A stretch of 64,000 nt of DNA from a virus (Duplodnaviria > Caudoviricetes). Positions 6,405 through 21,297 of the stretch are shown here, piece by piece (the stretch's first letter is position 1; every line of letters starts with the position of its first letter). Both the position numbers and the translations under genes were made by a program. The stretch is from IMG/VR virus record IMGVR_UViG_3300042892_002922, positions 96,001-160,000 of that record; one strand, 5' to 3'. Below the pieces are notes generated by a model. The model saw nothing but the letters and a program-made list of their open reading frames with translations, searched no databases and had not been told where the DNA came from.

Positions 6405-7493
6405 ATGACAACAGTTCAAATATTAACAACAAACTATAGTGGTCAAACCGCCACAATCACATTTTCCCCGTGTAGTGGAGGAACTATAAATTTAGGTTCA
6501 CAAGTCATTCCTTACAATTATATAAGTGATAATTACTTAGGTGAATATTCGCTATATTTTGCGGATTTTAATCAAACCTGCACATTTAATGTTCCGTGTC
6601 CAACAGAAACTCCAACACCTACACCAACGGAAACTCCAACACCAACACCAACACCTACATCAACAGAAACTCCTACACCAACAACAACTCCAACCAATAC
6701 AGAAACCCCAACTAATACACCAACTCCAACTTCAACTGATTCGAGTTCAATAACTACATACACAATTTCAGGATGTACTAATCTAAATGTTTTAGTTGTC
6801 GATTTAGGACCAGGACTTATAGTTCCTGGAGATGTAAACTATTACACATTCACAGGAGCAACACCAAGTGGATGTTATTCAGTCATTGGTAAGATAAATG
6901 CTCCGATAGACGACGCGTTTACCACATCATTTGGAACTGGTGGATGTAATGATTGTGAGAGTACTTATATAACTCCAACCCCAACTCCTACGAGTACACC
7001 TACTCCAACATCAACAAATACCCCAACTCCTACGAGTACACCTACTCCAACACCTACATCAGGTCTTGTGGTAACAATTTTAGAGGTTGGTTCTGACGTT
7101 ATAATGTCAGGTTCCGGTTCTCTTAACCTAACAGGATTAATTGAAGGTTCAGTACAAACAGCCGGAGGTATTAACGGTACGTTGGGTTATTGGGTAATTG
7201 GTCAATCTAATCTATTTTTTGCTAGGAAATTTTTTGGAAATAATCTAAATGTTTACCCTAATAGTTTCGGTTCAGGATATACAGCACCAACATCATACTC
7301 GGGACAAACATTTGGTATTCAGGATGGGTCACTAGGTAAAGATATAATTTTACCGATAGGTTATACTTCAGGTAGTCCATTAAGTGGAACTGCAACGTTT
7401 GCAAATAAAACAATATCAGGTATGGGACTAACACCTGGTACTTATTTATATGATTGGGGAAGTGATTCGATAACATTACAAATCGGTTCTTAA
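6405..7493 (+). CDS. Multidomain putative virion protein: shared N-module, PT linker, Cys module, PT linker, C-terminal domain of the type found in PEP-CTERM surface proteins
   Basis: The N-terminal ~65 aa align with ORF 7564. C-terminus reads VTILEVGSDVIMSGSGSLNLTGL...LPIGYTSGSPLSGTATFANKTISGMGLTPGTYLYDWGSDSITLQIG. Confidence 0.75.
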   Translation: MTTVQILTTNYSGQTATITFSPCSGGTINLGSQVIPYNYISDNYLGEYSLYFADFNQTCTFNVPCPTETPTPTPTETPTPTPTPTSTETPTPTTTPTNTETPTNTPTPTSTDSSSITTYTISGCTNLNVLVVDLGPGLIVPGDVNYYTFTGATPSGCYSVIGKINAPIDDAFTTSFGTGGCNDCESTYITPTPTPTSTPTPTSTNTPTPTSTPTPTPTSGLVVTILEVGSDVIMSGSGSLNLTGLIEGSVQTAGGINGTLGYWVIGQSNLFFARKFFGNNLNVYPNSFGSGYTAPTSYSGQTFGIQDGSLGKDIILPIGYTSGSPLSGTATFANKTISGMGLTPGTYLYDWGSDSITLQIGS

Positions 7494-7563
7494 AAATAAA
7501 AAGTAACAAATAATAAAAGATACAACAGAATAAAGTATTTATAATAGACAAAAATAACAAACT

Positions 7564-9666
7564 ATGGCAGTAGGAGCAAGAATAACAAGTACACACCTGA
7601 GTGGTAAAACGGCAACAGTGACGTTTGTACCATATACAGGGGCAACATCGGGTACAACTCAAAACCTTGGAACTAAGGTAATCCCTTTCAATAACATCAC
7701 CACACACCCGTATGGTGTTTATAATTTATACTTTGCTGAATATGATTACACATACACGTTAACCATACCACAACCAGATGCAAGTGTTCAATCGTTTGTT
7801 TATCAAAATAGAATGGTTGGTTCTGACAACTACGGTGCTGCGTTTTTAAATTTTGATGTTTTAACCGCAGAAATTATTGACTTAGGTGTTGATACTAATG
7901 TATGGAATAATCAGAATATATATGTGTTAGATAATTCAGGTTATATGCACTATTTCACAGGTGTTGACGATGGTGATGATAGATTAGTGATATTCACAAA
8001 TGCCATTCACGAAGAAATTGGAAGATATAGTGGTACAACTAATGGTTATAGTGGTGACGATTTAGATGGTAAGTGGGTTACATTTGAAGATGTGGATAAT
8101 GGTGTGTTTACTTACTCAGATGGTGTGTCAGTATACACATACACTTGGAATCCAGATATATATAGTATCGATATTGAGTGGAATTATGATGCAACCACGT
8201 CCGATGGTACAATGATTATCGAAAAATGGGAAGTTGAACCTTTAAGTGGGTGGACATACAATGGACCGGGTACATCACACATAGTTAATCCAACTGACGG
8301 TACAACAACTTTATTTAAAACTTGGACAGATGGAACATACATTAGACATAAAATGACAAATTCATCTGATTTTATTGCTGTTTTAACTGAAACTCAAGGT
8401 TCCTCAAACGTGTACACTAATTTTGAAATATATAACACAAGTGGAACCATTTTAGAGACGGTTTCATTAACTGGTGCCACATATAGCAATTATAATGACC
8501 AATTTCACGGAACAAACAAATATACCATAATACTCTATGATAATGATAATGTAGACACACCATATAAAATAATAAGTTATAATGGTAACACATCAAACTT
8601 AATTGAAACATCACACGCTAGAGGTACAGGATATACAGAAAACAATATAGATGGAGATTCTGGTTTATATCCAGATAGTGATGGAAATGATGGTGGTGTT
8701 GTAATAACTTTTTATGACACTGATAATTGGAATAATTTTGGTTCAGATGTTACATACTGTGACATTATGTATATGTTCAATAATCAAACATCATTTAGTA
8801 CATATACATTCGCAAACAACGAACCAAAAACAATTAATACTTGGGGTCAATTAAGTGACATTTATAGAGTTCCGTGTGTAAATGGTGATGGTATTGCATC
8901 TATGTTAACCATTATGTCGGGTAGTACTCGTATAGAAAGTATGAATATTAGTGTATCTGGTGTTACTAATTTGAACTGGAATTCATTGGGTAATAGAACG
9001 GCTGTACAAATTATGACAAACAGTAATAATAACGTAACTTACAAATTAATTAACGAATTAGGTGTTGTAATTGATGAAATAAACGATTACGGTTTAATAT
9101 CAGCTTATGCATCAAGTATGTATTCTTTTGGTGAAACCGCCTATCTTACAATCAGAACGGATGGTGACCTTGGATTTTATGTATATAGTGGTAGTACTGG
9201 ATTTACCTCAACAGATTATTATAATGATTTAAGTTCAACAAATCAATATTCTTCAGGTACAGATAAGTACAATGGTGCAATGGTTTTATATAACACCGAC
9301 CAATTAGATTTTAGAGTGTTAACATCAACTGGAATAACTAATGAGTTTAGTTTCCCTGAGTATAATGATTTTGATATTTCAGTTGGTGAGAGCAAGTTTA
9401 TGTTTGTTTATAATGAAACTAACGGTGGTGTAACTAAAATAAGATTGTATAATTTTTCTGGAACACTATTAAACAGTGAAACAACAACTTGGACTAATGG
9501 TTGGGATGATACATATGGTGTTAAAGATAGATTTGTTGTTATGAACTATAATGGGGATGACACGGTTGAAGTTTATTTAGTTAGTGAAAATACTATTACA
9601 TCAGTAACAACTCAAGATTATAGTAGTGAACAATCTACGAATGATTGGGTTTATCAAAATGACTAA
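7564..9666 (+). CDS. Putative virion protein: shared N-module plus probable beta-propeller
   Basis: 700 aa and beta-rich, with blade-like repeats (FEIYNTSGTILETV, YKLINELGVVIDEI, IRLYNFSGTLLNSE). TATTTAT upstream at 7536-7542. Confidence 0.7.
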   Translation: MAVGARITSTHLSGKTATVTFVPYTGATSGTTQNLGTKVIPFNNITTHPYGVYNLYFAEYDYTYTLTIPQPDASVQSFVYQNRMVGSDNYGAAFLNFDVLTAEIIDLGVDTNVWNNQNIYVLDNSGYMHYFTGVDDGDDRLVIFTNAIHEEIGRYSGTTNGYSGDDLDGKWVTFEDVDNGVFTYSDGVSVYTYTWNPDIYSIDIEWNYDATTSDGTMIIEKWEVEPLSGWTYNGPGTSHIVNPTDGTTTLFKTWTDGTYIRHKMTNSSDFIAVLTETQGSSNVYTNFEIYNTSGTILETVSLTGATYSNYNDQFHGTNKYTIILYDNDNVDTPYKIISYNGNTSNLIETSHARGTGYTENNIDGDSGLYPDSDGNDGGVVITFYDTDNWNNFGSDVTYCDIMYMFNNQTSFSTYTFANNEPKTINTWGQLSDIYRVPCVNGDGIASMLTIMSGSTRIESMNISVSGVTNLNWNSLGNRTAVQIMTNSNNNVTYKLINELGVVIDEINDYGLISAYASSMYSFGETAYLTIRTDGDLGFYVYSGSTGFTSTDYYNDLSSTNQYSSGTDKYNGAMVLYNTDQLDFRVLTSTGITNEFSFPEYNDFDISVGESKFMFVYNETNGGVTKIRLYNFSGTLLNSETTTWTNGWDDTYGVKDRFVVMNYNGDDTVEVYLVSENTITSVTTQDYSSEQSTNDWVYQND

Positions 9667-9685
9667 AAATTAAAAAAAATAGATT

Positions 9686-9928
9686 ATGAAAATATTAGAT
9701 ATTGATGTTAAAGTCATCAAAGACAAACAAAAAATTAAAAGTTTTCAAAAAACTTTTAACACTAATGAACCATTAACGGTTGAACACATTAAAGGTGTTA
9801 TTAAAAATGAAATGGGATTTCCATTTGAAATAGTAAAAGAAGAATTTTACTGTAAGTCAAATGAATTAAAAAATGAAGATAACGCACCATTTAAATCAGG
9901 TAACGAATTTATTTTAACAATTAAGTAA
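9686..9928 (+). CDS. Small protein with ubiquitin-like (beta-grasp) sequence pattern and no C-terminal GG
   Basis: TVEHIKGVIKNEMGFP aligns by eye to ubiquitin TIENVKAKIQDKEGIP. The 80-aa size and strand pattern also fit. Confidence 0.5.
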   Translation: MKILDIDVKVIKDKQKIKSFQKTFNTNEPLTVEHIKGVIKNEMGFPFEIVKEEFYCKSNELKNEDNAPFKSGNEFILTIK

Positions 9929-10296
9929 TGGAATTTTTTATCAGACAAGGGGCAACAGACCCAATCCTTAAAATGAGATTGATTGATGACGGTAAAAACG
10001 ACAAGTCGTCCTTTAATGATCTATTGGAGAATTCTGACATAACATTTGAAATGTATGATGTTAAAACCGGTAATCCAGTTATTTTAAACGCAAATTGTTA
10101 TTTAACAACTAGAGACAAAAAATATAACCAAACAACCGATGAGTACTATATAACATATAGATTTACAACTCAACAAACAGATATTATTGGTAAGTATGAA
10201 GCTATTATATCAGTTCAATTTTTAGATACAAACTCAAGCCCGACAAACAAATTAATTTTACCAATTAGAGAAAAACTATACATTAACATTATTTAA
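9928..10296 (+). CDS. BppU N-terminal-like (baseplate upper / fibre attachment) domain protein
   Basis: 'FFIRQGATDPILKMRL...ITYRFT...TDIIGKYEAIISVQF' follows the BppU_N pattern (I.QGD...L...L; Y.F...DT...G.Y.AE). Confidence 0.55.
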   Translation: MEFFIRQGATDPILKMRLIDDGKNDKSSFNDLLENSDITFEMYDVKTGNPVILNANCYLTTRDKKYNQTTDEYYITYRFTTQQTDIIGKYEAIISVQFLDTNSSPTNKLILPIREKLYINII

Positions 10297-13196
10297 ATGT
10301 TTGTGGTGTGATAAGCATAATCATGCCCATTTGTTTCAATTATCTCCTCATCATCATTATTCTTAACACTTTCTGCTTGAAATGATACAACTTTTCTATT
10401 GTGTTCAACCCAGTTTTGGTCCACTAGTTGTAAGCTGTCCTCAACATACATAAAGAAAGGGTCTCTATTTATTTTATTCCAAAATAAAACTTCGCTATCT
10501 GATAGTGTCATTACTTCATCGTAACTATCTTGTCCGCCAGTTTTTAATGGAAATCCAGATGTTAATTCACATTGTAGTTTTGTAAAATATTGGCGATCCT
10601 TAGGGTCTTCAATTAAAATCGAGTCACGAATCTCAGGTTTAAACACCACTAACAATGGTTCAATCCTTTTGTTAAAGTTATTAATGTATCTAGCAACATT
10701 ATAATCACCAGTCATATTAGGATTATCCATTAAATCTTTTTCACTAATTCTATAGCAATTAATTTGAATGTAATCAGTTGGCATCGGTTTACCAAAAGCA
10801 AATTCATAATCCTCTTGTTGTTTTTTTGTTGCTTTTGTTATTTTTTGAACATCACCATCTGATTTTTTTACACCATTGTTTATGTAAAATATTGTTTCAC
10901 CCAAACCAGCAGGATAATTTTCTTTTAAAATTAATTCCATATGCGCTTGTCTAGCCATGGAACCACCAGATTTTGTTATCTTTTTAATATGTTTTCTATA
11001 ATCCTCAACACTTTGTTTTACACGAGATTTATTTGCAATCTTAGCTAAAGGTATTTTATTGTCAAACAACAATTCAAGTGTTTCATAATAATATTCTAAA
11101 AAACTATGCCCATCACCATTTAATAAGTAAACCAAACCAGTATCTAAAAATTCAACAACATATGTTTGTAATTTTTTTGATTTAATTGTATTCCCAGTAA
11201 GTTTTATTTTTTCTTTACCTTTCTTGATAAGTTTAATGATATAATTCTTTCTAGAAATATTAATACATGCAGGTGCGATATAATCAATATCTAAACTCAT
11301 TTCACCTCTCATAAAAATATCATTGAACTCAGCAGTATCCGCTTCAATTCCTTTGTATTCATTATCTAAATCAACCATCTCATTTAGACCGCGTCCAATA
11401 TATGTATGTTCATCAATATCTACAGGTGTCTCAAAGTTAACACCATCGGTATCCATTACTAGTGGTTTGTATCCTTTCTTTTCAAAAAACATAATCATCA
11501 TACGAAGGCATTGACGCCCAGTACAAGTAATTGTTTCACCCATATTCATATCACCCCAGGGGAAAACTTGGGGCGCAGATAATGAACCAAAATATGCATT
11601 AATAAAAATTTTAATCGGCAATTGTTTACGATCATACATTTCCGATTCGATTGGATTTGTATTTTTTAATTCGCCTGCTAATCTTTTATATTTTATACGA
11701 ATATTTCTAAAATATTTTAACATTGATTTTTGTACCCCCATAACATCACATTCGGGGAATACATCATAAACCAATTGAATTGATGGATATAGGGATGCGT
11801 AGTCAAATTTAACAATATTCTTAGAGTAACCAACGTTTAACAATCGAGACAATCCACCAGTAATAGCTCTTTTACTATCGCGCGCGGGGATTGATAAATT
11901 GTTTTCATATGACCAAGCCAACATTATAATTTTCCATAATGTTGCAGTACCCATTGTAGATATTCTTTCATATGTTGTAGGAACAACCTTGGAAAGTAAA
12001 AAAGATGCTTGGCTAAATGAGTCATCAACAACCATAGTTTCATACAAGTCATCGTCAAGATATTGTTCAACCACTCTTCGACCAGTCCATATTTCAAATT
12101 TACCTGGATATTTTTCTAAAAGACCATCCGTACCTTTGTCACCAATTTTTTTAAATCCGCCGGTTTTTGGGTTAACATAATACGATTCGTTTTCTAAATA
12201 AATTTTAGAAATAAATGCACCGTCAACATAAACACGATTTTCTTTTTCTTTCTCCAAATACGTGGTGATATATTTCAAACTCCAAGATTTGATTTCCGAA
12301 TTTATAGCTTGTGCCCTTCTGACTCCGTGAGCGATATCAATAACACTAAAACCCCATAACATAAATTGGTTATAAGGTTCAATCTCATTAGCCAACTTCA
12401 ACATCCCCTCTTTGATTTTTATTCCTTGCTTTTTATTGAAAATTTTTGTGTGCTCTTCAATATTAATTCCTAATATTTCCGCACGTTTTAATATAAATGG
12501 AAAGTCAAAAGATGCTGAGTTATAACCTCCAATAATTGTCGGTTTAATTTCGCCAATTATTCTGAAAAAATCCTCAATAGATTTCTTTTCACCGTCATCA
12601 CCAAACGCATCTAATGTTTTAGTGTATCCTCGATTATCTTTAATTCCAATAAGAATTATTTTACATTTTTCAGGTTCTAAACCTGTTGTCTCAATGTCAA
12701 ATACAAGTCGATGAACATCATTATAATCTTCAATACCCTTGAACAATCTTTTCTTTTTTTGAATTAAGAATTGTTCAACTGGTGTTAATATTGTAAAAGA
12801 TGATTTGTATTGTTCATCCCAAGGATTAATTCCACCTTCACGAAAAAACGCCATTAAGTTGGTATACGTTTTTAAACTTTTAACCAAATAGTTCAAACCA
12901 TCTTCTAACCTTTCGTTACCATGTGAATCTAATTTTTCAATTATAATCCCATGCTGACGCATTTTTGCTTTTTGTAATGATTTATTACCTTGATAAAAGT
13001 TGAAACCACTTAAATCACCCACCCAAAGAAATGGTGTGAGTGTGTCTGAAAGAATCATTTTACCCTTTTCAGGGTGCTGAATGATTTTAAAAATTGTGTT
13101 TGTTTTGTAATCGTATTCTAACCCAACAATATATTCTTCTGGGTCCGAACCGTTTAAGAAACTTTCGATTACTTCTTGTGATATTACCTCTGGCAT
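10293..13196 (-). CDS. Family B DNA polymerase with 3'-5' exonuclease
   Basis: ExoI FDIETTG, ExoII YNSASFDFPFI, ExoIII YLDDDL; polymerase motifs DYASLYPS, KIFINAYFG and MDTDG. Confidence 0.95.
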   Translation of the reverse strand: MPEVISQEVIESFLNGSDPEEYIVGLEYDYKTNTIFKIIQHPEKGKMILSDTLTPFLWVGDLSGFNFYQGNKSLQKAKMRQHGIIIEKLDSHGNERLEDGLNYLVKSLKTYTNLMAFFREGGINPWDEQYKSSFTILTPVEQFLIQKKKRLFKGIEDYNDVHRLVFDIETTGLEPEKCKIILIGIKDNRGYTKTLDAFGDDGEKKSIEDFFRIIGEIKPTIIGGYNSASFDFPFILKRAEILGINIEEHTKIFNKKQGIKIKEGMLKLANEIEPYNQFMLWGFSVIDIAHGVRRAQAINSEIKSWSLKYITTYLEKEKENRVYVDGAFISKIYLENESYYVNPKTGGFKKIGDKGTDGLLEKYPGKFEIWTGRRVVEQYLDDDLYETMVVDDSFSQASFLLSKVVPTTYERISTMGTATLWKIIMLAWSYENNLSIPARDSKRAITGGLSRLLNVGYSKNIVKFDYASLYPSIQLVYDVFPECDVMGVQKSMLKYFRNIRIKYKRLAGELKNTNPIESEMYDRKQLPIKIFINAYFGSLSAPQVFPWGDMNMGETITCTGRQCLRMMIMFFEKKGYKPLVMDTDGVNFETPVDIDEHTYIGRGLNEMVDLDNEYKGIEADTAEFNDIFMRGEMSLDIDYIAPACINISRKNYIIKLIKKGKEKIKLTGNTIKSKKLQTYVVEFLDTGLVYLLNGDGHSFLEYYYETLELLFDNKIPLAKIANKSRVKQSVEDYRKHIKKITKSGGSMARQAHMELILKENYPAGLGETIFYINNGVKKSDGDVQKITKATKKQQEDYEFAFGKPMPTDYIQINCYRISEKDLMDNPNMTGDYNVARYINNFNKRIEPLLVVFKPEIRDSILIEDPKDRQYFTKLQCELTSGFPLKTGGQDSYDEVMTLSDSEVLFWNKINRDPFFMYVEDSLQLVDQNWVEHNRKVVSFQAESVKNNDDEEIIETNGHDYAYHTTNI

Positions 13197-13257
13197 TTTT
13201 ATATATTAAAAGTGACACATTATACTCATATCGAATGATATGATTTGTCTTGAACTT

Positions 13258-13265
13258 CAAATATA
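13258..13265 (-). promoter_or_regulatory. Bacteroidota-type sigma70 -7 element (TATATTTG) upstream of the DNA polymerase
   Basis: Exact match to TAnnTTTG, about 60 nt upstream of the start codon, with a T-rich stretch further upstream. Confidence 0.55.
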
Positions 13266-13289
13266 CATAATTGTTCCTTAAATAAAAAA

Positions 13290-18477: not shown

Positions 18478-21297
18478 ATGGCAAATTCAAACAGAGTTTT
18501 CGTTTCTCCGGGGGTCTACACTTCAGAGAAAGATTTAACATTCGTAGCGCAAAGTGTAGGGGTAACAACATTGGGTTTAGTAGGTGAAACTTTAAAAGGT
18601 CCAGCTTTCGAACCAATCTTGGTGTCTAATTTCGACGAATTCAAAACATATTTTGGTGGCACTTCACCCGCAAAAGACGGAAGTGATAACCCAAAATACG
18701 AGTTACCTTATGTAGCAAAATCATATTTACAAGAATCAAATCAGTTATTTGTAACCCGAGTATTGGGTTTAACTGGTTATAAACCAAACAGAACCTATGG
18801 TATTAAAACATTGGGTGGTATGGTTGTTGGAGACCTTGTAACAACAGGAACAACAACTGGAACAACAGTGGTTACCGCAAGTGGTATTACTGGTTCAACA
18901 TTTTATGCTGAACTTTCAGGAAAAACAGCATCTGATGGCGACTCAGTACCAGGATTTATCTTAGACCAATATAGTGGAAACACTAGTGGGAATACTGGTA
19001 ACTGGTTTACAATTGGAACTGTACCAACTGCTGCAACAAGTTCTTTAACTGGAACCACTGTTTCATCACCAATAGGTGCTAGTGCAACCAAAAACTGGTA
19101 TAACACATACTCAAACTTTACAAACAAGGTTTATTCATACCTATTCGTTTATAATCACGGAACAACATCATTTGATGTTACAAGATATGAATATAGCGCA
19201 ACTTTAGCAAATGACGGAAAAGTTGTTTGTTTGTTAAGGTCTAGAGGTTCATACATTTCGGAAGTATTAACACATAGAGTTACTGGTACAACATCGGTTC
19301 AAATTACTGGATCAGATATTGCATTAGATCCTTTATCAGAATTCACATTAACTGTTACAGACGTCGATGCTGATGTTAGAACATTTGATTGTAGTTTTGA
19401 CACTGCTTCAACAAAATATATTACAAAAGTTTTAGGTGTTGATGTTTTTGATAAAGAAAAAACGGTTAACCCAATATATGTTCACGAAGTTTATCCAAAT
19501 TTAATTAAAAATCTTTTCCAACAAGGTCAAATCAGAGGTTTAAATACTACTGAATATGTAAACGCAGAAGGAACAGATTTTGTACAACAATGGGATATGG
19601 CGGGTTCAAATTTAGTTGTTTCTGAAGTAAGAGGTGGTAACGTATTTGATTTATTTAGTTTCTTAACAATATCAGATGGTAACGCTTCTAATAATGAAGT
19701 TAAAATTACTATTCAAAATATTAATGTTGAAACTGGTGAATTTGATGTTTTAGTTCGTGATTTTTATGATTCAGACGAAAACCAAGTGGTTCTAGAGAAG
19801 TTCTCAAGATGTTCAATGAATCCGGATCTTCCAGGTTTCGTTGCTAAAAAAATTGGTACATCTGATGGTGAATATGAAATCAGAAGTAAATACGTTATGT
19901 TAGTATTGGCTGATAACGCGCCAGCAGACGCAATTCCAGCGGGTTTCAAAGGATGTACAACCAAAGATTCTATCGGAGGTTTAACATTTAAAACAAAATA
20001 CAATACAGCAGGTGAAACAATTTATTATAACACAGATGGTAGTGCGGAAATATCTAATGGAGATAAAGTTAAAAAAGTAACATTAGGTTTATCATCGCAA
20101 TCACATATTGGATATGACAAAGACATGTTCAAATTTAAGGGTGTTGGTGCTAATGAGGTAACATTTGGTTTTCACTTATCAACAAATGCCTCAACAATAA
20201 CTGACGCTAATGGAAATACAGTATATGAAACAACTGCATATGACTTTGAAGGTCAAACAGGTGTGGATAACCCATTAACAGGTATATCTTATTGTAAATT
20301 CACATTACCAGTATTTGGCGGATTTGATGGTTGGGATATCTACAGAAATGTTAGAACAAACACAGACGGATATATTTTTGGTAAAAACACATATTCAACC
20401 AATCACTCAACAAGTGGTGGTGTATTCAGTTCAACAGTTGGTAACTCAGATTATTACGCTTATTTAGAAGGTATTAATTCATTCTCTAATCCAGAAGCAG
20501 TAGATATTAATTTATTTGCAACTCCAGGTATCAATTGGTTAAACCACAGTTCTCTTGTAACTCAAGCTATTGATATGGTTGAGAATGATAGAGCGGATTC
20601 ATTATACATTATTAATGCACCAAACCACACAACAACAGCGGAAGTTGTTGATGATTTAGATAGTGTTAGTTTAGACACAAACTATTCAGCAACTTACTGG
20701 CCTTGGATTCAAGTAAGAGATACTGACAACGCAACTCAACTTTACTTACCACCAACAGGAGAAGTTGTTAAAAACATTGCATTAACCGATAATGTATCAT
20801 ATCCTTGGTTTGCAGTTGCAGGTTATTCAAGAGGTTTAGTTAACTCAATTAAAGCAGCTAAAAAATTAACATTAGATGATAGAGATGAATTATACAAAAA
20901 CAGAATTAACCCAATTGCGACATTCTCTGATACAGGTACAATTATTTGGGGTAACAAAACCTTACAAGTAAGAGAATCAGCATTAGATAGAATTAACGTA
21001 AGAAGATTGTTATTAAGAGCTAGAAAGTTGATTTCAGCAGTAGCAGTTAGATTATTGTTCGAACAAAATGATGATCAAGTAAGACAAGAATTCTTAAGTT
21101 TGGTTAACCCAATATTAGATTCTATTAAGAAAGAAAGAGGTTTGTATGATTTCCGCGTAGCGGTTTCTAACGACCCAGAAGACATTGATGCTAACACACT
21201 AAGAGGTAAGATTTACATTAAACCAACTAGATCATTAGAATTTATCGATGTAGAATTCATAATAACACCAACAGGTGCTTCTTTTGAAAATATATAA
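18478..21297 (+). CDS. Contractile tail sheath protein with large insertions
   Basis: N-terminal SPGVYTSEKD; C-terminal YSATYWPW, PWFAVAG..RG, LYKNRINPI, WGNKTL, RINVRRLL and IKPTRSLEFI. Confidence 0.95.
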   Translation: MANSNRVFVSPGVYTSEKDLTFVAQSVGVTTLGLVGETLKGPAFEPILVSNFDEFKTYFGGTSPAKDGSDNPKYELPYVAKSYLQESNQLFVTRVLGLTGYKPNRTYGIKTLGGMVVGDLVTTGTTTGTTVVTASGITGSTFYAELSGKTASDGDSVPGFILDQYSGNTSGNTGNWFTIGTVPTAATSSLTGTTVSSPIGASATKNWYNTYSNFTNKVYSYLFVYNHGTTSFDVTRYEYSATLANDGKVVCLLRSRGSYISEVLTHRVTGTTSVQITGSDIALDPLSEFTLTVTDVDADVRTFDCSFDTASTKYITKVLGVDVFDKEKTVNPIYVHEVYPNLIKNLFQQGQIRGLNTTEYVNAEGTDFVQQWDMAGSNLVVSEVRGGNVFDLFSFLTISDGNASNNEVKITIQNINVETGEFDVLVRDFYDSDENQVVLEKFSRCSMNPDLPGFVAKKIGTSDGEYEIRSKYVMLVLADNAPADAIPAGFKGCTTKDSIGGLTFKTKYNTAGETIYYNTDGSAEISNGDKVKKVTLGLSSQSHIGYDKDMFKFKGVGANEVTFGFHLSTNASTITDANGNTVYETTAYDFEGQTGVDNPLTGISYCKFTLPVFGGFDGWDIYRNVRTNTDGYIFGKNTYSTNHSTSGGVFSSTVGNSDYYAYLEGINSFSNPEAVDINLFATPGINWLNHSSLVTQAIDMVENDRADSLYIINAPNHTTTAEVVDDLDSVSLDTNYSATYWPWIQVRDTDNATQLYLPPTGEVVKNIALTDNVSYPWFAVAGYSRGLVNSIKAAKKLTLDDRDELYKNRINPIATFSDTGTIIWGNKTLQVRESALDRINVRRLLLRARKLISAVAVRLLFEQNDDQVRQEFLSLVNPILDSIKKERGLYDFRVAVSNDPEDIDANTLRGKIYIKPTRSLEFIDVEFIITPTGASFENI

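What the first reader, a model, noticed from the sequence alone, without database searches (positions are those of the whole stretch)
9686..9928. Phage ubiquitin-like protein lacking the conjugation diglycine
Seen: TVEHIKGVIKNEMGFP aligns without gaps to ubiquitin 22-37 (TIENVKAKIQDKEGIP), with T, E, K, I, G and P identical. It is preceded by two beta-strand-like segments and followed by FYCKSNEL and KSGNEFILTIK (compare IFAGKQL and QKESTLHLVLR). It ends without GG. Established: some bacterial anti-phage systems (Bil, type II CBASS E1/E2) use ubiquitin-like conjugation, and Bil modifies a phage tail protein. Inference: a non-conjugatable beta-grasp protein encoded next to fibre and baseplate-attachment genes could be a decoy for such machinery, or simply a structural adaptor.
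Basis: partly seen in the sequence, partly recalled or inferred. Interest (0 to 1): 0.65.

Follow-up and report, generated by a model that had tools for sequence, protein, structure and literature searches.

The report
Ubiquitin-fold partner of a phage fibre protein
This 80-residue protein of an uncultured ~310-kb lake phage really has the ubiquitin (beta-grasp) shape but cannot be conjugated, and it is most likely a dedicated binding partner of the 700-residue fibre-like protein encoded just upstream, not a decoy for host defence enzymes.

Summary
ORF 9686-9928 (+) is a real, conserved 80-aa gene. With an alignment, AlphaFold2 gives a confident beta-grasp model (pLDDT 92.6). All 50 best full-length structural matches are ubiquitin-superfold or beta-grasp domains (top Z 8.6). 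Every family member ends in "...[IVL]K", with no tail and no Gly. A 93%-complete relative genome has no E1, E2 or JAB match.

Nothing supports the decoy idea. The gene forms a two-gene module with the upstream 700-aa gene:
- About 40 contigs carry both genes, down to 23% and 32% identity, with no exception in either direction.
- The downstream gene varies, and relatives with a different fibre-like gene in that slot lack the 80-aa gene.
- Its identity tracks the 700-aa protein (Spearman 0.92), not the 122-aa protein or PolB (0.40, 0.46).
- A co-fold supports binding: ipSAE 0.80 against 0.00 for the best of 3 controls.

Best reading: a non-covalent cognate partner (assembly cap or accessory subunit) of a fibre or decoration protein. 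That makes it a new variant of the familiar fibre-plus-small-partner cassette, here built on a ubiquitin fold. Interest is moderate. The scan has not met this protein on other DNA. The other phage UBLs it has noted include Gly-Gly-ended ones with E1, E2 or JAB partners, which is a different case.

The parts
9686..9928 (+). Gene for the 80-aa beta-grasp (ubiquitin-fold) protein. It ends ...FILTIK-stop, with no C-terminal tail and no Gly.
   Evidence: ORF. 95 homologues at 55-99% identity and more distant ones down to 23%. AF2 model m4ebb20cf6745, pLDDT 92.6. Beta-grasp fold matches.
9716..9760 (+). Codons 11-25: tip and second strand of the long b1-b2 hairpin, the largest predicted contact segment with the 700-aa protein.
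   Evidence: Interface list of the co-fold: partner residues 1-3, 5, 7, 11-21, 23, 25, 44-46, 57-59, 69-72. This is a prediction only.
7564..9666 (+). Gene for the 700-aa fibre- or decoration-type protein, the proposed binding partner. Its N-terminal ~70 aa is a module shared with neighbouring variable genes. The body (about residues 75-700) is the part that always comes with the beta-grasp gene.
   Evidence: ORF. No Pfam, PHROG or PDB sequence match. N-module paralogue at 6414-6596. Strict co-occurrence with the 80-aa gene. Loci that share only the N-module lack the 80-aa gene (L079-L083). Co-fold.
9667..9685 (+). 19-nt A-rich spacer between the two genes. It has no promoter-like TATTTATA motif and no terminator, so the pair is probably one transcription unit (inference).
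   Evidence: Sequence. Scans. The spacer is 12-41 nt in 13 relatives. One RNA-library contig (X20, 9635-9785) spans it with 32 letters on the upstream side. This is weak evidence, because DNA can be present in RNA libraries.
7535..7543 (+). GTATTTATA, a promoter-like motif 21 nt before the ATG of the 700-aa gene (inferred promoter of the pair).
   Evidence: The same core lies 10-45 nt upstream of same-strand gene starts at 2103, 14405(-), 16447, 21569, 23071, 25091, 37533 and 48225. Its raw count is not above shuffles, so only the positions are suggestive.
9928..10296 (+). 122-aa gene, overlapping the beta-grasp gene's stop (TAATG). It is a neighbour only and not part of the module.
   Evidence: At least 989 homologues against 95 for the 80-aa protein. 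It follows other fibre-like genes directly, with no 80-aa gene, in L004 and L007-L009. It is absent after the 80-aa gene in L034, L036, L037, L039 and L040. In L017 a 311-aa gene separates the two.

Best explanation
The 80-aa protein is a stand-alone ubiquitin-fold (beta-grasp) domain. It works non-covalently as the dedicated partner of the 700-aa fibre- or decoration-type protein encoded directly upstream.

The two genes are made together, probably from one late-type transcript. The beta-grasp protein is predicted to dock by one pole onto a face of the 700-aa protein's body. That pole consists of its N-terminus, the unusually long b1-b2 hairpin and the loops at residues 44-46, 57-59 and 69-72. 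The face it docks on is built from about 13 separate loops between residues 120 and 569, probably a repeated beta-rich (propeller-like) domain.

Its most likely role is that of the small cognate genes that follow phage fibre genes: it helps the large protein fold or assemble, or caps it, or it stays on as an accessory subunit.

Shown: the fold, the lack of a conjugatable end, the obligate two-gene linkage and the co-variation. Predicted in silico: the binding and the interface. Inferred: co-transcription, the propeller-like architecture of the partner, and the chaperone/cap or subunit role.
For: (1) Fold. AF2 gives pLDDT 92.6. VIA-align: all 50 listed matches are beta-grasp domains over residues 1-80, top kindlin-1 F0 with Z 8.6, rmsd 2.4 over 77 residues. 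Foldseek PDB, BFVD and the ESM Atlas agree. The Atlas model of the protein's own cluster matches at TM 0.78.

(2) Linkage, forward. Every locus found with the 80-aa protein that has upstream sequence carries a 700-aa homologue immediately upstream, at 35-97% identity. This includes L034, L036 and L037, where neither the 122-aa gene nor PolB follows, and the most distant relatives L039-L042.

(3) Linkage, reverse. Every locus found with the 700-aa protein whose 3' end is on the contig has a beta-grasp ORF 0-40 nt downstream, down to 32% identity. Loci that share only the N-terminal ~70-aa module have none.

(4) Relatives with a different protein in that slot lack the 80-aa gene (L004, L007-L009).

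(5) Co-variation. Spearman 0.92 with the 700-aa protein (n=21), against 0.40 with the 122-aa protein and 0.46 with PolB. Example: L015 has 99% / 90% identity for the pair but 73% / 76% for the two downstream genes.

(6) Co-fold of the alignments A3 + A4. Score 0.80, best of 3 controls 0.00. In the tool's calibration 58 of 80 solved complexes and 2 of 110 mismatched pairs reached the mark; those counts hold only roughly because my own alignments were used. The runs agree in at least 75% of contacts and the partner's pLDDT is at least 83. No similar solved complex is known to me, and the 700-aa profile matches nothing in the PDB, so a pass from memory is unlikely.

(7) Context. The module sits among LamG, lectin and collagen-repeat genes.

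(8) Precedent. Fibre plus cognate small chaperone modules are exchanged as units, and chaperone 'caps' with beta-hairpin extensions have been described (PMC10579305). A Ub-like domain acts in lambda tail assembly (TAPI; PMC1779556).
Against: - No experiment exists. The phage is uncultured, and the binding is a prediction.
- The predicted interface residues are less conserved than the rest of each protein: 0.53 vs 0.65 in the 700-aa protein and 0.45 vs 0.54 in the beta-grasp protein. This is expected for surface loops and fits a lineage-specific interface, but it gives the model no independent support.
- Gene linkage and co-variation show co-inheritance and a shared recombination unit, not physical contact. 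Many of the loci are related to each other, so the correlation overstates the number of independent events.
- That the 700-aa protein is a virion fibre or decoration protein is itself inferred from context. It has no family match. The propeller-like architecture rests on the scattered contact pattern, weak internal-repeat signals (best hhalign P 4.6e-4) and a motif chosen after looking at the sequence.
- Known fibre chaperone families do not have a beta-grasp fold, and none is matched.
Confidence: 0.65

Rival explanations
1. Decoy or inhibitor of host ubiquitin-like conjugation defences (Bil, type II CBASS Cap2/Cap3). A non-conjugatable ubiquitin look-alike occupies the host E1, E2 or JAB enzymes.
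For: The fold is ubiquitin-like. The end cannot be conjugated. The phage lineage has no E1, E2 or JAB of its own that the protein could serve. The gene is an accessory, present in only part of the lineage. Bil targets a phage tail-fibre protein (bioRxiv 10.1101/2023.09.04.556158).
Against: A free decoy has no reason to be tied to one structural gene. Yet the gene is never seen without the 700-aa gene, co-varies with it (rho 0.92), and lies 12-41 nt behind it with no promoter motif of its own. The Bil Ubl enters the E1 site through its C-terminal glycine tail, whereas this protein stops at the last strand, so it lacks the main E1 handle. There is no PADLOC match and no significant sequence likeness to any Ubl. 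The host and its defences are unknown.
Confidence: 0.05
2. Partner or adaptor of the downstream 122-aa protein (a BppU_N-like baseplate or fibre-attachment protein), as the TAATG overlap suggests.
For: The stop and start codons overlap in the window, and the 80-aa then 122-aa order recurs in many loci. The Atlas gives a weak lead to PF10651 BppU_N for the 122-aa protein, carried by 10% of one similar cluster.
Against: The 122-aa family is about ten times larger (at least 989 vs 95 hits). It follows other fibre-like genes directly, with no 80-aa gene, in L004 and L007-L009. The 80-aa gene is followed by other genes in L034, L036, L037, L039 and L040, and a 311-aa gene separates the two in L017. 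Identity correlates only weakly (rho 0.40).
Confidence: 0.04
3. The two genes are co-inherited but do not bind each other. The beta-grasp protein has some other job linked to the fibre cassette, for example binding a host surface or intracellular molecule, or regulation. It travels with the 700-aa gene only because they lie in one recombination unit.
For: Linkage and co-variation alone cannot separate binding from shared inheritance. Interface residues are not specially conserved. Beta-grasp domains bind very many kinds of ligand, as the range of matches shows.
Against: The pairing survives changes of genomic context and divergence down to 23% / 32% identity without a single exception in about 40 contigs. 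That is hard to explain by hitch-hiking alone in a locus that recombines as freely as this one (variable neighbours, contig breaks, the L017 insertion). The co-fold score is 0.80 against 0.00 for the best of 3 controls.
Confidence: 0.2
4. A conjugatable or sulfur-carrier Ubl (ubiquitin, ThiS/MoaD or lambda TAPI type) that is processed to expose a reactive end.
For: The beta-grasp fold, with ThiS/MoaD and RnfH families among the Atlas fold neighbours. Lambda TAPI is a precedent for a Ub-like domain in tail assembly.
Against: The protein has no residues after the last strand, and the invariant last residue is Lys, not Gly. There is no C-terminal extension to trim. The 93%-complete relative genome has no JAB, Prok-JAB, ThiF or UQ_con match. 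TAPI has a conserved C-terminal Gly, a second domain and a JAB-bearing neighbour, and all three are absent here.
Confidence: 0.02

Closest known systems
Phage tail-fibre gene plus cognate small chaperone/cap gene modules (T4 gp37-gp38, lambda stf-tfa and Mu S-U from my own knowledge; Alteromonas phages A5/V22 from PMC10579305)
   Same: A small gene lies directly downstream of a large fibre or RBP-type gene. The pair is inherited and exchanged as a unit within a variable host-recognition locus. The small protein is predicted to bind the large one, and a beta-hairpin is a main contact element, comparable to the chaperone 'tentacle' in PMC10579305.
   Different: There is no sequence match to any known chaperone family. 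The fold is a ubiquitin-type beta-grasp, which none of the fibre-chaperone papers retrieved mentions (0 occurrences of 'beta-grasp' or 'ubiquitin-like fold' in the 12 papers listed). The predicted docking site is a broad multi-loop face of the protein's body rather than a trimeric fibre tip. Dependence on the small protein for folding is untested.
Lambda/T1 tail assembly protein I (TAPI, gpI): the Ub-like beta-grasp domain of phage tail assembly (Iyer, Burroughs & Aravind 2006, PMC1779556)
   Same: A phage-encoded ubiquitin-fold domain placed next to the host-specificity or tail-tip gene and acting in tail assembly.
   Different: [quoted passage not shown] Here the protein is a bare 80-aa domain ending in Lys, the lineage has no JAB, and nothing links the two by sequence.
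Conjugatable bacterial and eukaryotic Ubls (ubiquitin, ISG15-like BilA, Bub Ubls)
   Same: The overall beta-grasp fold, and the helix signature T-[VI]-x-x-[LIV]-K-x-x-[IV] followed by P, with the Lys (K36, aligned with ubiquitin K27) invariant.
   Different: There is no flexible C-terminal tail, no Gly or Gly-Gly, no E1/E2/JAB partners and no significant sequence similarity. The b1-b2 hairpin is longer (11 + 12 residues), more like the superantigen, EAP and kindlin F0 type of beta-grasp.
Non-conjugated UBL domains used as protein-protein adaptors (kindlin/talin F0, HOIL-1L UBL, USP7 UBLs, Ras-binding domains)
   Same: These are the best structural matches (Z 6.5-8.6). They are ubiquitin-fold modules that work purely by non-covalent binding, which is the mode proposed here.
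   Different: They are eukaryotic domains inside larger proteins, and there is no evidence of common descent. Here the module is a separate phage gene product paired with a structural-type protein.

Membership tests
Beta-grasp (ubiquitin superfold), structural class | b-b-a-b-b(-b) order with a helix packed across a mixed sheet. Full-length superposition on known members. | tested here: met
   AF2 model: pLDDT 92.6, elements b2-12, b15-26, helix 32-43, b49-56, b59-61, b73-79. All 50 listed VIA-align matches are beta-grasp domains spanning residues 1-80, with Z 6.1-8.6 and rmsd 2.2-4.0. Foldseek PDB TM 0.5-0.67. Atlas and BFVD agree. The model is predicted, not solved.
Pfam ubiquitin family (PF00240), sequence membership | Score above the curated cut-off, or a significant profile match to ubiquitin or UBL sequences. 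| tested here: not met
   No PF00240 hit at E <= 1. Profile against PDB: UBLs only at E about 0.6. hhalign against ubiquitin: probability 3.8%, E 0.011.
Conjugatable Ubl (ubiquitin / ISG15 / BilA / ThiS / MoaD type) | A flexible C-terminal tail ending in Gly or Gly-Gly, or a longer precursor trimmed to one. | tested here: not met
   All members end ...[IVL]K directly after the last strand. K80 is invariant across 23-99% identity.
Conjugatable Ubl (ubiquitin / ISG15 / BilA / ThiS / MoaD type) | Associated E1 (ThiF), E2 or JAB genes. | tested here: not met
   None in the neighbourhood. No Prok-JAB, JAB, ThiF or UQ_con match in the 310,691-bp, 93%-complete relative genome G002, which carries a 99%-identical copy. 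Very divergent enzymes could be missed.
Lambda TAPI (gpI) family | An N-terminal Ub-like domain with a conserved terminal Gly, a Gly-rich linker and the TAPI-C domain, with TAPK (JAB/NlpC) and TAPJ as neighbours (PMC1779556). | tested here: not met
   A single 80-aa domain ending in Lys. No JAB in the lineage. No Pfam hit. The neighbours are unrelated genes.
Fibre/RBP plus cognate small partner cassette (a functional class, not a sequence family) | The small gene lies immediately downstream of the large fibre-type gene and is inherited with it. | tested here: met
   12-41 nt spacers. Co-occurrence in both directions without exception. Spearman 0.92.
Fibre/RBP plus cognate small partner cassette (a functional class, not a sequence family) | The small protein binds the large one. 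| tested here: inconclusive
   In silico only. Co-fold score 0.80, best of 3 controls 0.00. In the tool's calibration 58 of 80 solved complexes and 2 of 110 mismatched pairs reached the mark, which holds only roughly here because my own alignments were used. The runs agree in at least 75% of contacts and the partner's pLDDT is at least 83. The interface is not more conserved than the rest.
Fibre/RBP plus cognate small partner cassette (a functional class, not a sequence family) | The large protein is a virion fibre or receptor-binding protein, and the small one is needed for its folding or assembly. | not testable with these tools
   Context only: LamG, lectin and collagen-repeat neighbours and a shared N-terminal module. 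The phage is uncultured.
Known tail-fibre chaperone sequence families (e.g. Caudo_TAP) | A Pfam or PHROG match. | tested here: not met
   No Pfam family other than DUF7903 at E 0.15, and no PHROG at all, at E <= 1.
Barstar (the name one JGI record gives to P0002) | A match to the barstar family, and an alpha/beta fold with three parallel strands. | tested here: not met
   No Pfam barstar hit at E <= 1. The model is a beta-grasp, and no barstar appears among the fold matches listed.

The most novel reading that the evidence does not exclude
The bound ubiquitin-fold protein is a shield. By sitting non-covalently on the exposed face of a fibre protein, it would mimic or pre-empt the covalent Ubl tag that Bil-like host systems attach to phage tail fibres. 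Alternatively it would mask the surface those systems recognise. In this reading a phage uses a ubiquitin look-alike on its own virion protein as a counter-defence.
Probability: 0.05. Interest if true: 0.8.

Novelty: new variant of a known kind. Interest (0 to 1): 0.4.

Why it matters
Phage host-recognition genes often come with a small cognate helper gene. Those helpers matter for anyone who wants to express, engineer or model fibres and receptor-binding proteins. This case adds an unannotated helper family (no Pfam, PHROG or GenBank phage match) with a ubiquitin fold. It is widespread in freshwater jumbo-phage metagenomes and comes with a concrete, testable predicted interface.

It also serves as a caution for the current interest in phage ubiquitin-like proteins and Bil or CBASS defences. 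A stand-alone phage UBL without Gly-Gly need not be a decoy. Here gene linkage points to an ordinary non-covalent structural or assembly role. The lambda gpI precedent suggests that phage tail and fibre assembly has recruited ubiquitin-fold modules more than once.

Tried and rejected
- GenBank phage collection: no DNA or protein match.
- Pfam, PHROGs and PADLOC for the 80-aa protein: nothing useful.
- 'Barstar' label on P0002: rejected. There is no family hit and the fold is different.
- Long LRR-type repeat proteins (P0098-P0117; unit like GAPxxVGGDFYCxxNxLTSL) hit residues ~45-76 at E 1e-8 to 1e-3. I rejected these as relatives. The scores sum over 4-6 repeats, the match depends on the window's own FYCKSNEL where most homologues have FYYMS, and the region is b3-b4 of a compact domain.
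- G001, the nearest held record, is a 60-kb fragment without the gene and was uninformative.
- Fused forms: no longer protein matched the family profile. This is weak evidence because of the candidate cap.
- 700-aa protein: no PDB sequence match. Atlas feature scores were 0.81, which is chance level. Internal repeats were only weakly detectable. A blade-like motif occurs 4 times against 0.34 expected, but I chose it after looking at the sequence.
- Interface conservation did not support the co-fold.
- RNA libraries: contigs from two freshwater metatranscriptomes cover the 80-aa gene (X20 9635-9785 and 9811-9956; X22 9701-9999). Contigs cannot show a transcript, DNA can be present in RNA libraries, and the uncovered parts mean nothing. 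I therefore treat this only as a hint that the gene is expressed.
- No inverted repeats flank the inverted PolB segment.

Full report
WHAT IS THERE

Window 9686..9928 (+) is an 80-aa ORF with an ATG start and a TAA stop. It lies 19 nt after a 700-aa ORF (7564..9666). Its stop overlaps the start of a 122-aa ORF (TAATG; 9928..10296). That ORF in turn meets the end of a family-B DNA polymerase gene on the other strand (10293..13196).

The window is part of an uncultured freshwater myophage. It carries a tail sheath gene at 18478..21297, a T4 gp13-like gene in relatives and an SNF2 helicase. Relatives lie on contigs of 310-326 kb. The exact DNA occurs in many lake metagenomes.

IS THE GENE REAL?

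Yes. A word-indexed search found 95 proteins of almost always 80 aa at 55-99% identity. An exhaustive HMMER search added full-length relatives at 32-58%. Locus searches added more, down to 23%. None has a Pfam, PHROG or PADLOC family, and GenBank phages hold no match.

IS IT UBIQUITIN-LIKE?

By sequence alone the case is weak. The family profile finds BAG6, FAF1 and ubiquitin UBLs in the PDB at E about 0.6 only; they are 8 of the 10 top hits.

The fold is what decides it.
- A single-sequence AF2 run already gave b-b-a-b-b, but only one of its five models was confident.
- With a 28-sequence alignment all five models agree: pLDDT 90.6-92.6 and pTM 0.80.
- Foldseek against the PDB returns only beta-grasp proteins: superantigen C-domains, EapH1, HOIL-1L UBL and ubiquitin, with TM 0.5-0.67.
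- An aligner that does not depend on Foldseek lists 50 matches, all beta-grasp domains covering residues 1-80. The top one is the kindlin-1 F0 domain (Z 8.6, rmsd 2.4, 77 residues). USP7 UBLs, a trypanosome Ubl, Ras-binding domains, DWNN, Fubi, SUMO, MoaD and others follow. Z values of 6-8 are middling on that tool's scale. The uniformity of the list and the full-length coverage carry the argument.
- The ESM Atlas gives ubiquitin, ThiS/MoaD, RnfH and enterotoxin clusters, plus the protein's own cluster at TM 0.78.
- BFVD adds two uncharacterised proteins of uncultured caudoviruses with TM 0.79-0.83 at 14-15% identity.

The b1-b2 hairpin (11 + 12 residues) is longer than in ubiquitin.

Across the whole family only M1, K36 and the last residue K80 are invariant, and P46 and E48 nearly so. 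K36 is the residue aligned with ubiquitin K27.

CAN IT BE CONJUGATED?

No sign of it. Every member stops right after the last strand with ...[IVL]K. There is no tail, no Gly and nothing to trim. A 310,691-bp, 93%-complete relative genome carries a single, 99%-identical copy and has no match to Prok-JAB, JAB, ThiF or UQ_con.

WHAT DOES IT GO WITH?

This was the informative part.

The 122-aa neighbour belongs to a far larger family (at least 989 hits). In relatives L004 and L007-L009 it follows other fibre-like genes directly, with no 80-aa gene in between.

The 700-aa gene behaves differently. In every locus retrieved with the 80-aa protein that has upstream sequence, a homologue of the 700-aa protein (35-97% identity) lies immediately upstream. 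This includes L034, L036 and L037, where the downstream genes are different (in L036 the order is lectin-domain protein, 682-aa homologue, beta-grasp gene, collagen-repeat protein, glycosyltransferase). It also includes the four most distant relatives, L039-L042.

I then ran the reverse search with the 700-aa alignment. Every locus whose 3' end is on the contig has a beta-grasp ORF 0-40 nt downstream, down to 32% identity. Loci that share only the N-terminal ~70-aa module have none. In L017 a 311-aa fibre-like gene is inserted between the beta-grasp gene and the 122-aa gene, so the TAATG coupling is incidental.

Taken together, about 40 contigs carry the pair and no informative locus breaks the rule. 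Many of these contigs are related, so they are not 40 independent events.

Identity of the 80-aa protein to the window's copy tracks that of the 700-aa protein (Spearman 0.92, n=21). It does not track the 122-aa protein (0.40) or PolB (0.46). The recombination unit is therefore [700-aa + 80-aa].

DO THEY BIND?

I co-folded matched 14-row alignments of the two proteins. The score was 0.80 (runs 0.80, 0.84, 0.80) and the best of 3 controls scored 0.00. In the tool's calibration 58 of 80 solved complexes and 2 of 110 mismatched pairs reached the mark; those counts hold only roughly because I used my own alignments. The runs agree in at least 75% of contacts and the partner's pLDDT is at least 83. 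This supports binding but does not show it.

The contacts on the small protein are residues 1-3, 5, 7, 11-21, 23, 25, 44-46, 57-59 and 69-72, which together form one pole of the domain dominated by the hairpin. The contacts on the large protein are about 13 short segments between residues 120 and 569. That pattern fits a face built from many repeated loops.

A propeller-like body is plausible but unproven. Profile self-comparison is weak (best P 4.6e-4). A blade-like motif occurs 4 times against 0.34 expected, but I picked it after seeing the sequence. The PDB and the Atlas give nothing.

The interface residues are less conserved than the rest of each protein. That is normal for surface loops and fits a co-varying interface, but it is not independent support.

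EXPRESSION

A GTATTTATA motif lies 21 nt before the 700-aa start. The 19-nt spacer before the 80-aa gene has no such motif and no terminator, so co-transcription is likely. That is an inference.

Contigs from two freshwater RNA libraries cover the 80-aa gene, and one spans the 700-aa/80-aa junction. This is only a hint, because such contigs show neither a transcript nor the absence of DNA.

MECHANISM

Best reading, confidence about 0.65: a non-covalent, dedicated partner of the 700-aa fibre- or decoration-type protein. It is made together with that protein and docks its hairpin pole onto the body. I cannot decide whether it acts as an assembly helper or transient cap, or stays on as a subunit.

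This follows the logic of fibre plus cognate chaperone modules that are exchanged as units, including chaperone caps with beta-hairpin 'tentacles' (PMC10579305). A ubiquitin-like domain in tail assembly has a precedent in lambda TAPI. TAPI, however, has a terminal Gly, a second domain and a JAB-bearing neighbour (PMC1779556), and all three are absent here.

THE DECOY IDEA

Bil conjugates its Ubl to a phage central tail fibre, and the Ubl's C-terminal glycine enters the E1 active site (10.1101/2023.09.04.556158). The present protein lacks that tail. It is tied to one structural gene and has no promoter motif of its own. Nothing I found points to host enzymes. I give the free-decoy reading about 0.05. 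I give a more exotic variant, a bound shield on the fibre against Ubl tagging, about the same.

NOVELTY AND SCORE

This is a new, unannotated family with a known fold in a known kind of genetic arrangement, so I class it as a new variant of a known kind. It is useful for annotation and gives a clean hypothesis for a structural test, but it is not a surprise that changes a field. Interest 0.4.

The scan has noted other phage UBLs. Those followed up end in Gly or Gly-Gly and come with E1, E2 or JAB genes, so they are a different case. One unfollowed note describes another Gly-less stand-alone UBL, again read as a decoy. This protein was not found before on other DNA.

Noticed in passing
window 10293-13289 (PolB gene plus its ~93-nt upstream spacer): The PolB gene is inverted relative to most relatives. 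In L001-L010, L013, L015-L033 and L035 it runs in the same direction as the 122-aa gene, with a ~93-nt gap after that gene and a 4-nt convergent overlap with the gp13-like gene. In the window and in L011, L012 and L014 the gene and its upstream spacer are flipped, so that PolB's stop overlaps the 122-aa gene's stop (TTAA at 10293-10296). L011 and L012 share only 79% PolB identity with the window, so the flipped form is not confined to one strain. No long inverted repeats flank the segment.
   Followed up: partly
P0099 (73 aa): A metagenomic protein that joins the first 41 residues of the 122-aa protein to the last 32 residues of the beta-grasp protein at a shared 'FEM'. It is either an assembly chimera or a real rearrangement in the locus.
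   Followed up: no
window 7564-7770 and 6405-6600; L007-L009, L079-L083: The first ~70 residues of the 700-aa protein form a nearly invariant module (MAxGARIxSxNLSGKTATVTF...). It is shared with the adjacent 362-aa protein (46% over 65 aa) and with unrelated-bodied proteins of relatives (39-52%). It is probably a common virion-docking module carrying interchangeable bodies.
   Followed up: partly
L010, L019, L020, L022, L031, L035 (IMG/VR contigs); L017 1303-2238: Many metagenomic contigs end within about 130 nt upstream of the beta-grasp gene or inside it. Others show insertions in the locus: a 311-aa fibre-like gene in L017, and extra DNA before PolB in L022 and L035. This suggests population-level hypervariability of the fibre locus that breaks assemblies.
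   Followed up: partly
window 2089, 7535, 14420(-), 16434, 21524, 23058, 25069, 37484, 48211: xTATTTATA lies 10-45 nt upstream of many same-strand gene starts, which makes it a candidate phage promoter motif. Its total count is not above shuffles in this AT-rich DNA.
   Followed up: partly
window 9928-10296: The 122-aa protein belongs to a very large family of unannotated phage proteins (at least 989 hits at E <= 1e-3). It appears to be the constant last gene of the variable fibre locus. The only lead to a function is PF10651 BppU_N, carried by 10% of one similar Atlas cluster.
   Followed up: partly
BFVD entries A0A6J5RHD6 (92 aa) and A0A6J5Q1E3 (125 aa): Two uncharacterised proteins of uncultured caudoviruses have nearly the same predicted fold (TM 0.83 and 0.79) at 14-15% identity. 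Small phage beta-grasp proteins of this shape may therefore be more widespread than the sequence family. Two viral Atlas clusters (541 aa with fn3, and 454 aa) also contain a similar domain.
   Followed up: no
P0098-P0117: A family of short-repeat LRR-type proteins (unit about 23 aa, GAPxxVGGDFYCxxNxLTSL) matches residues 45-76 of the window's protein repeatedly. I judged this a chance resemblance inflated by repeat summing.
   Followed up: partly
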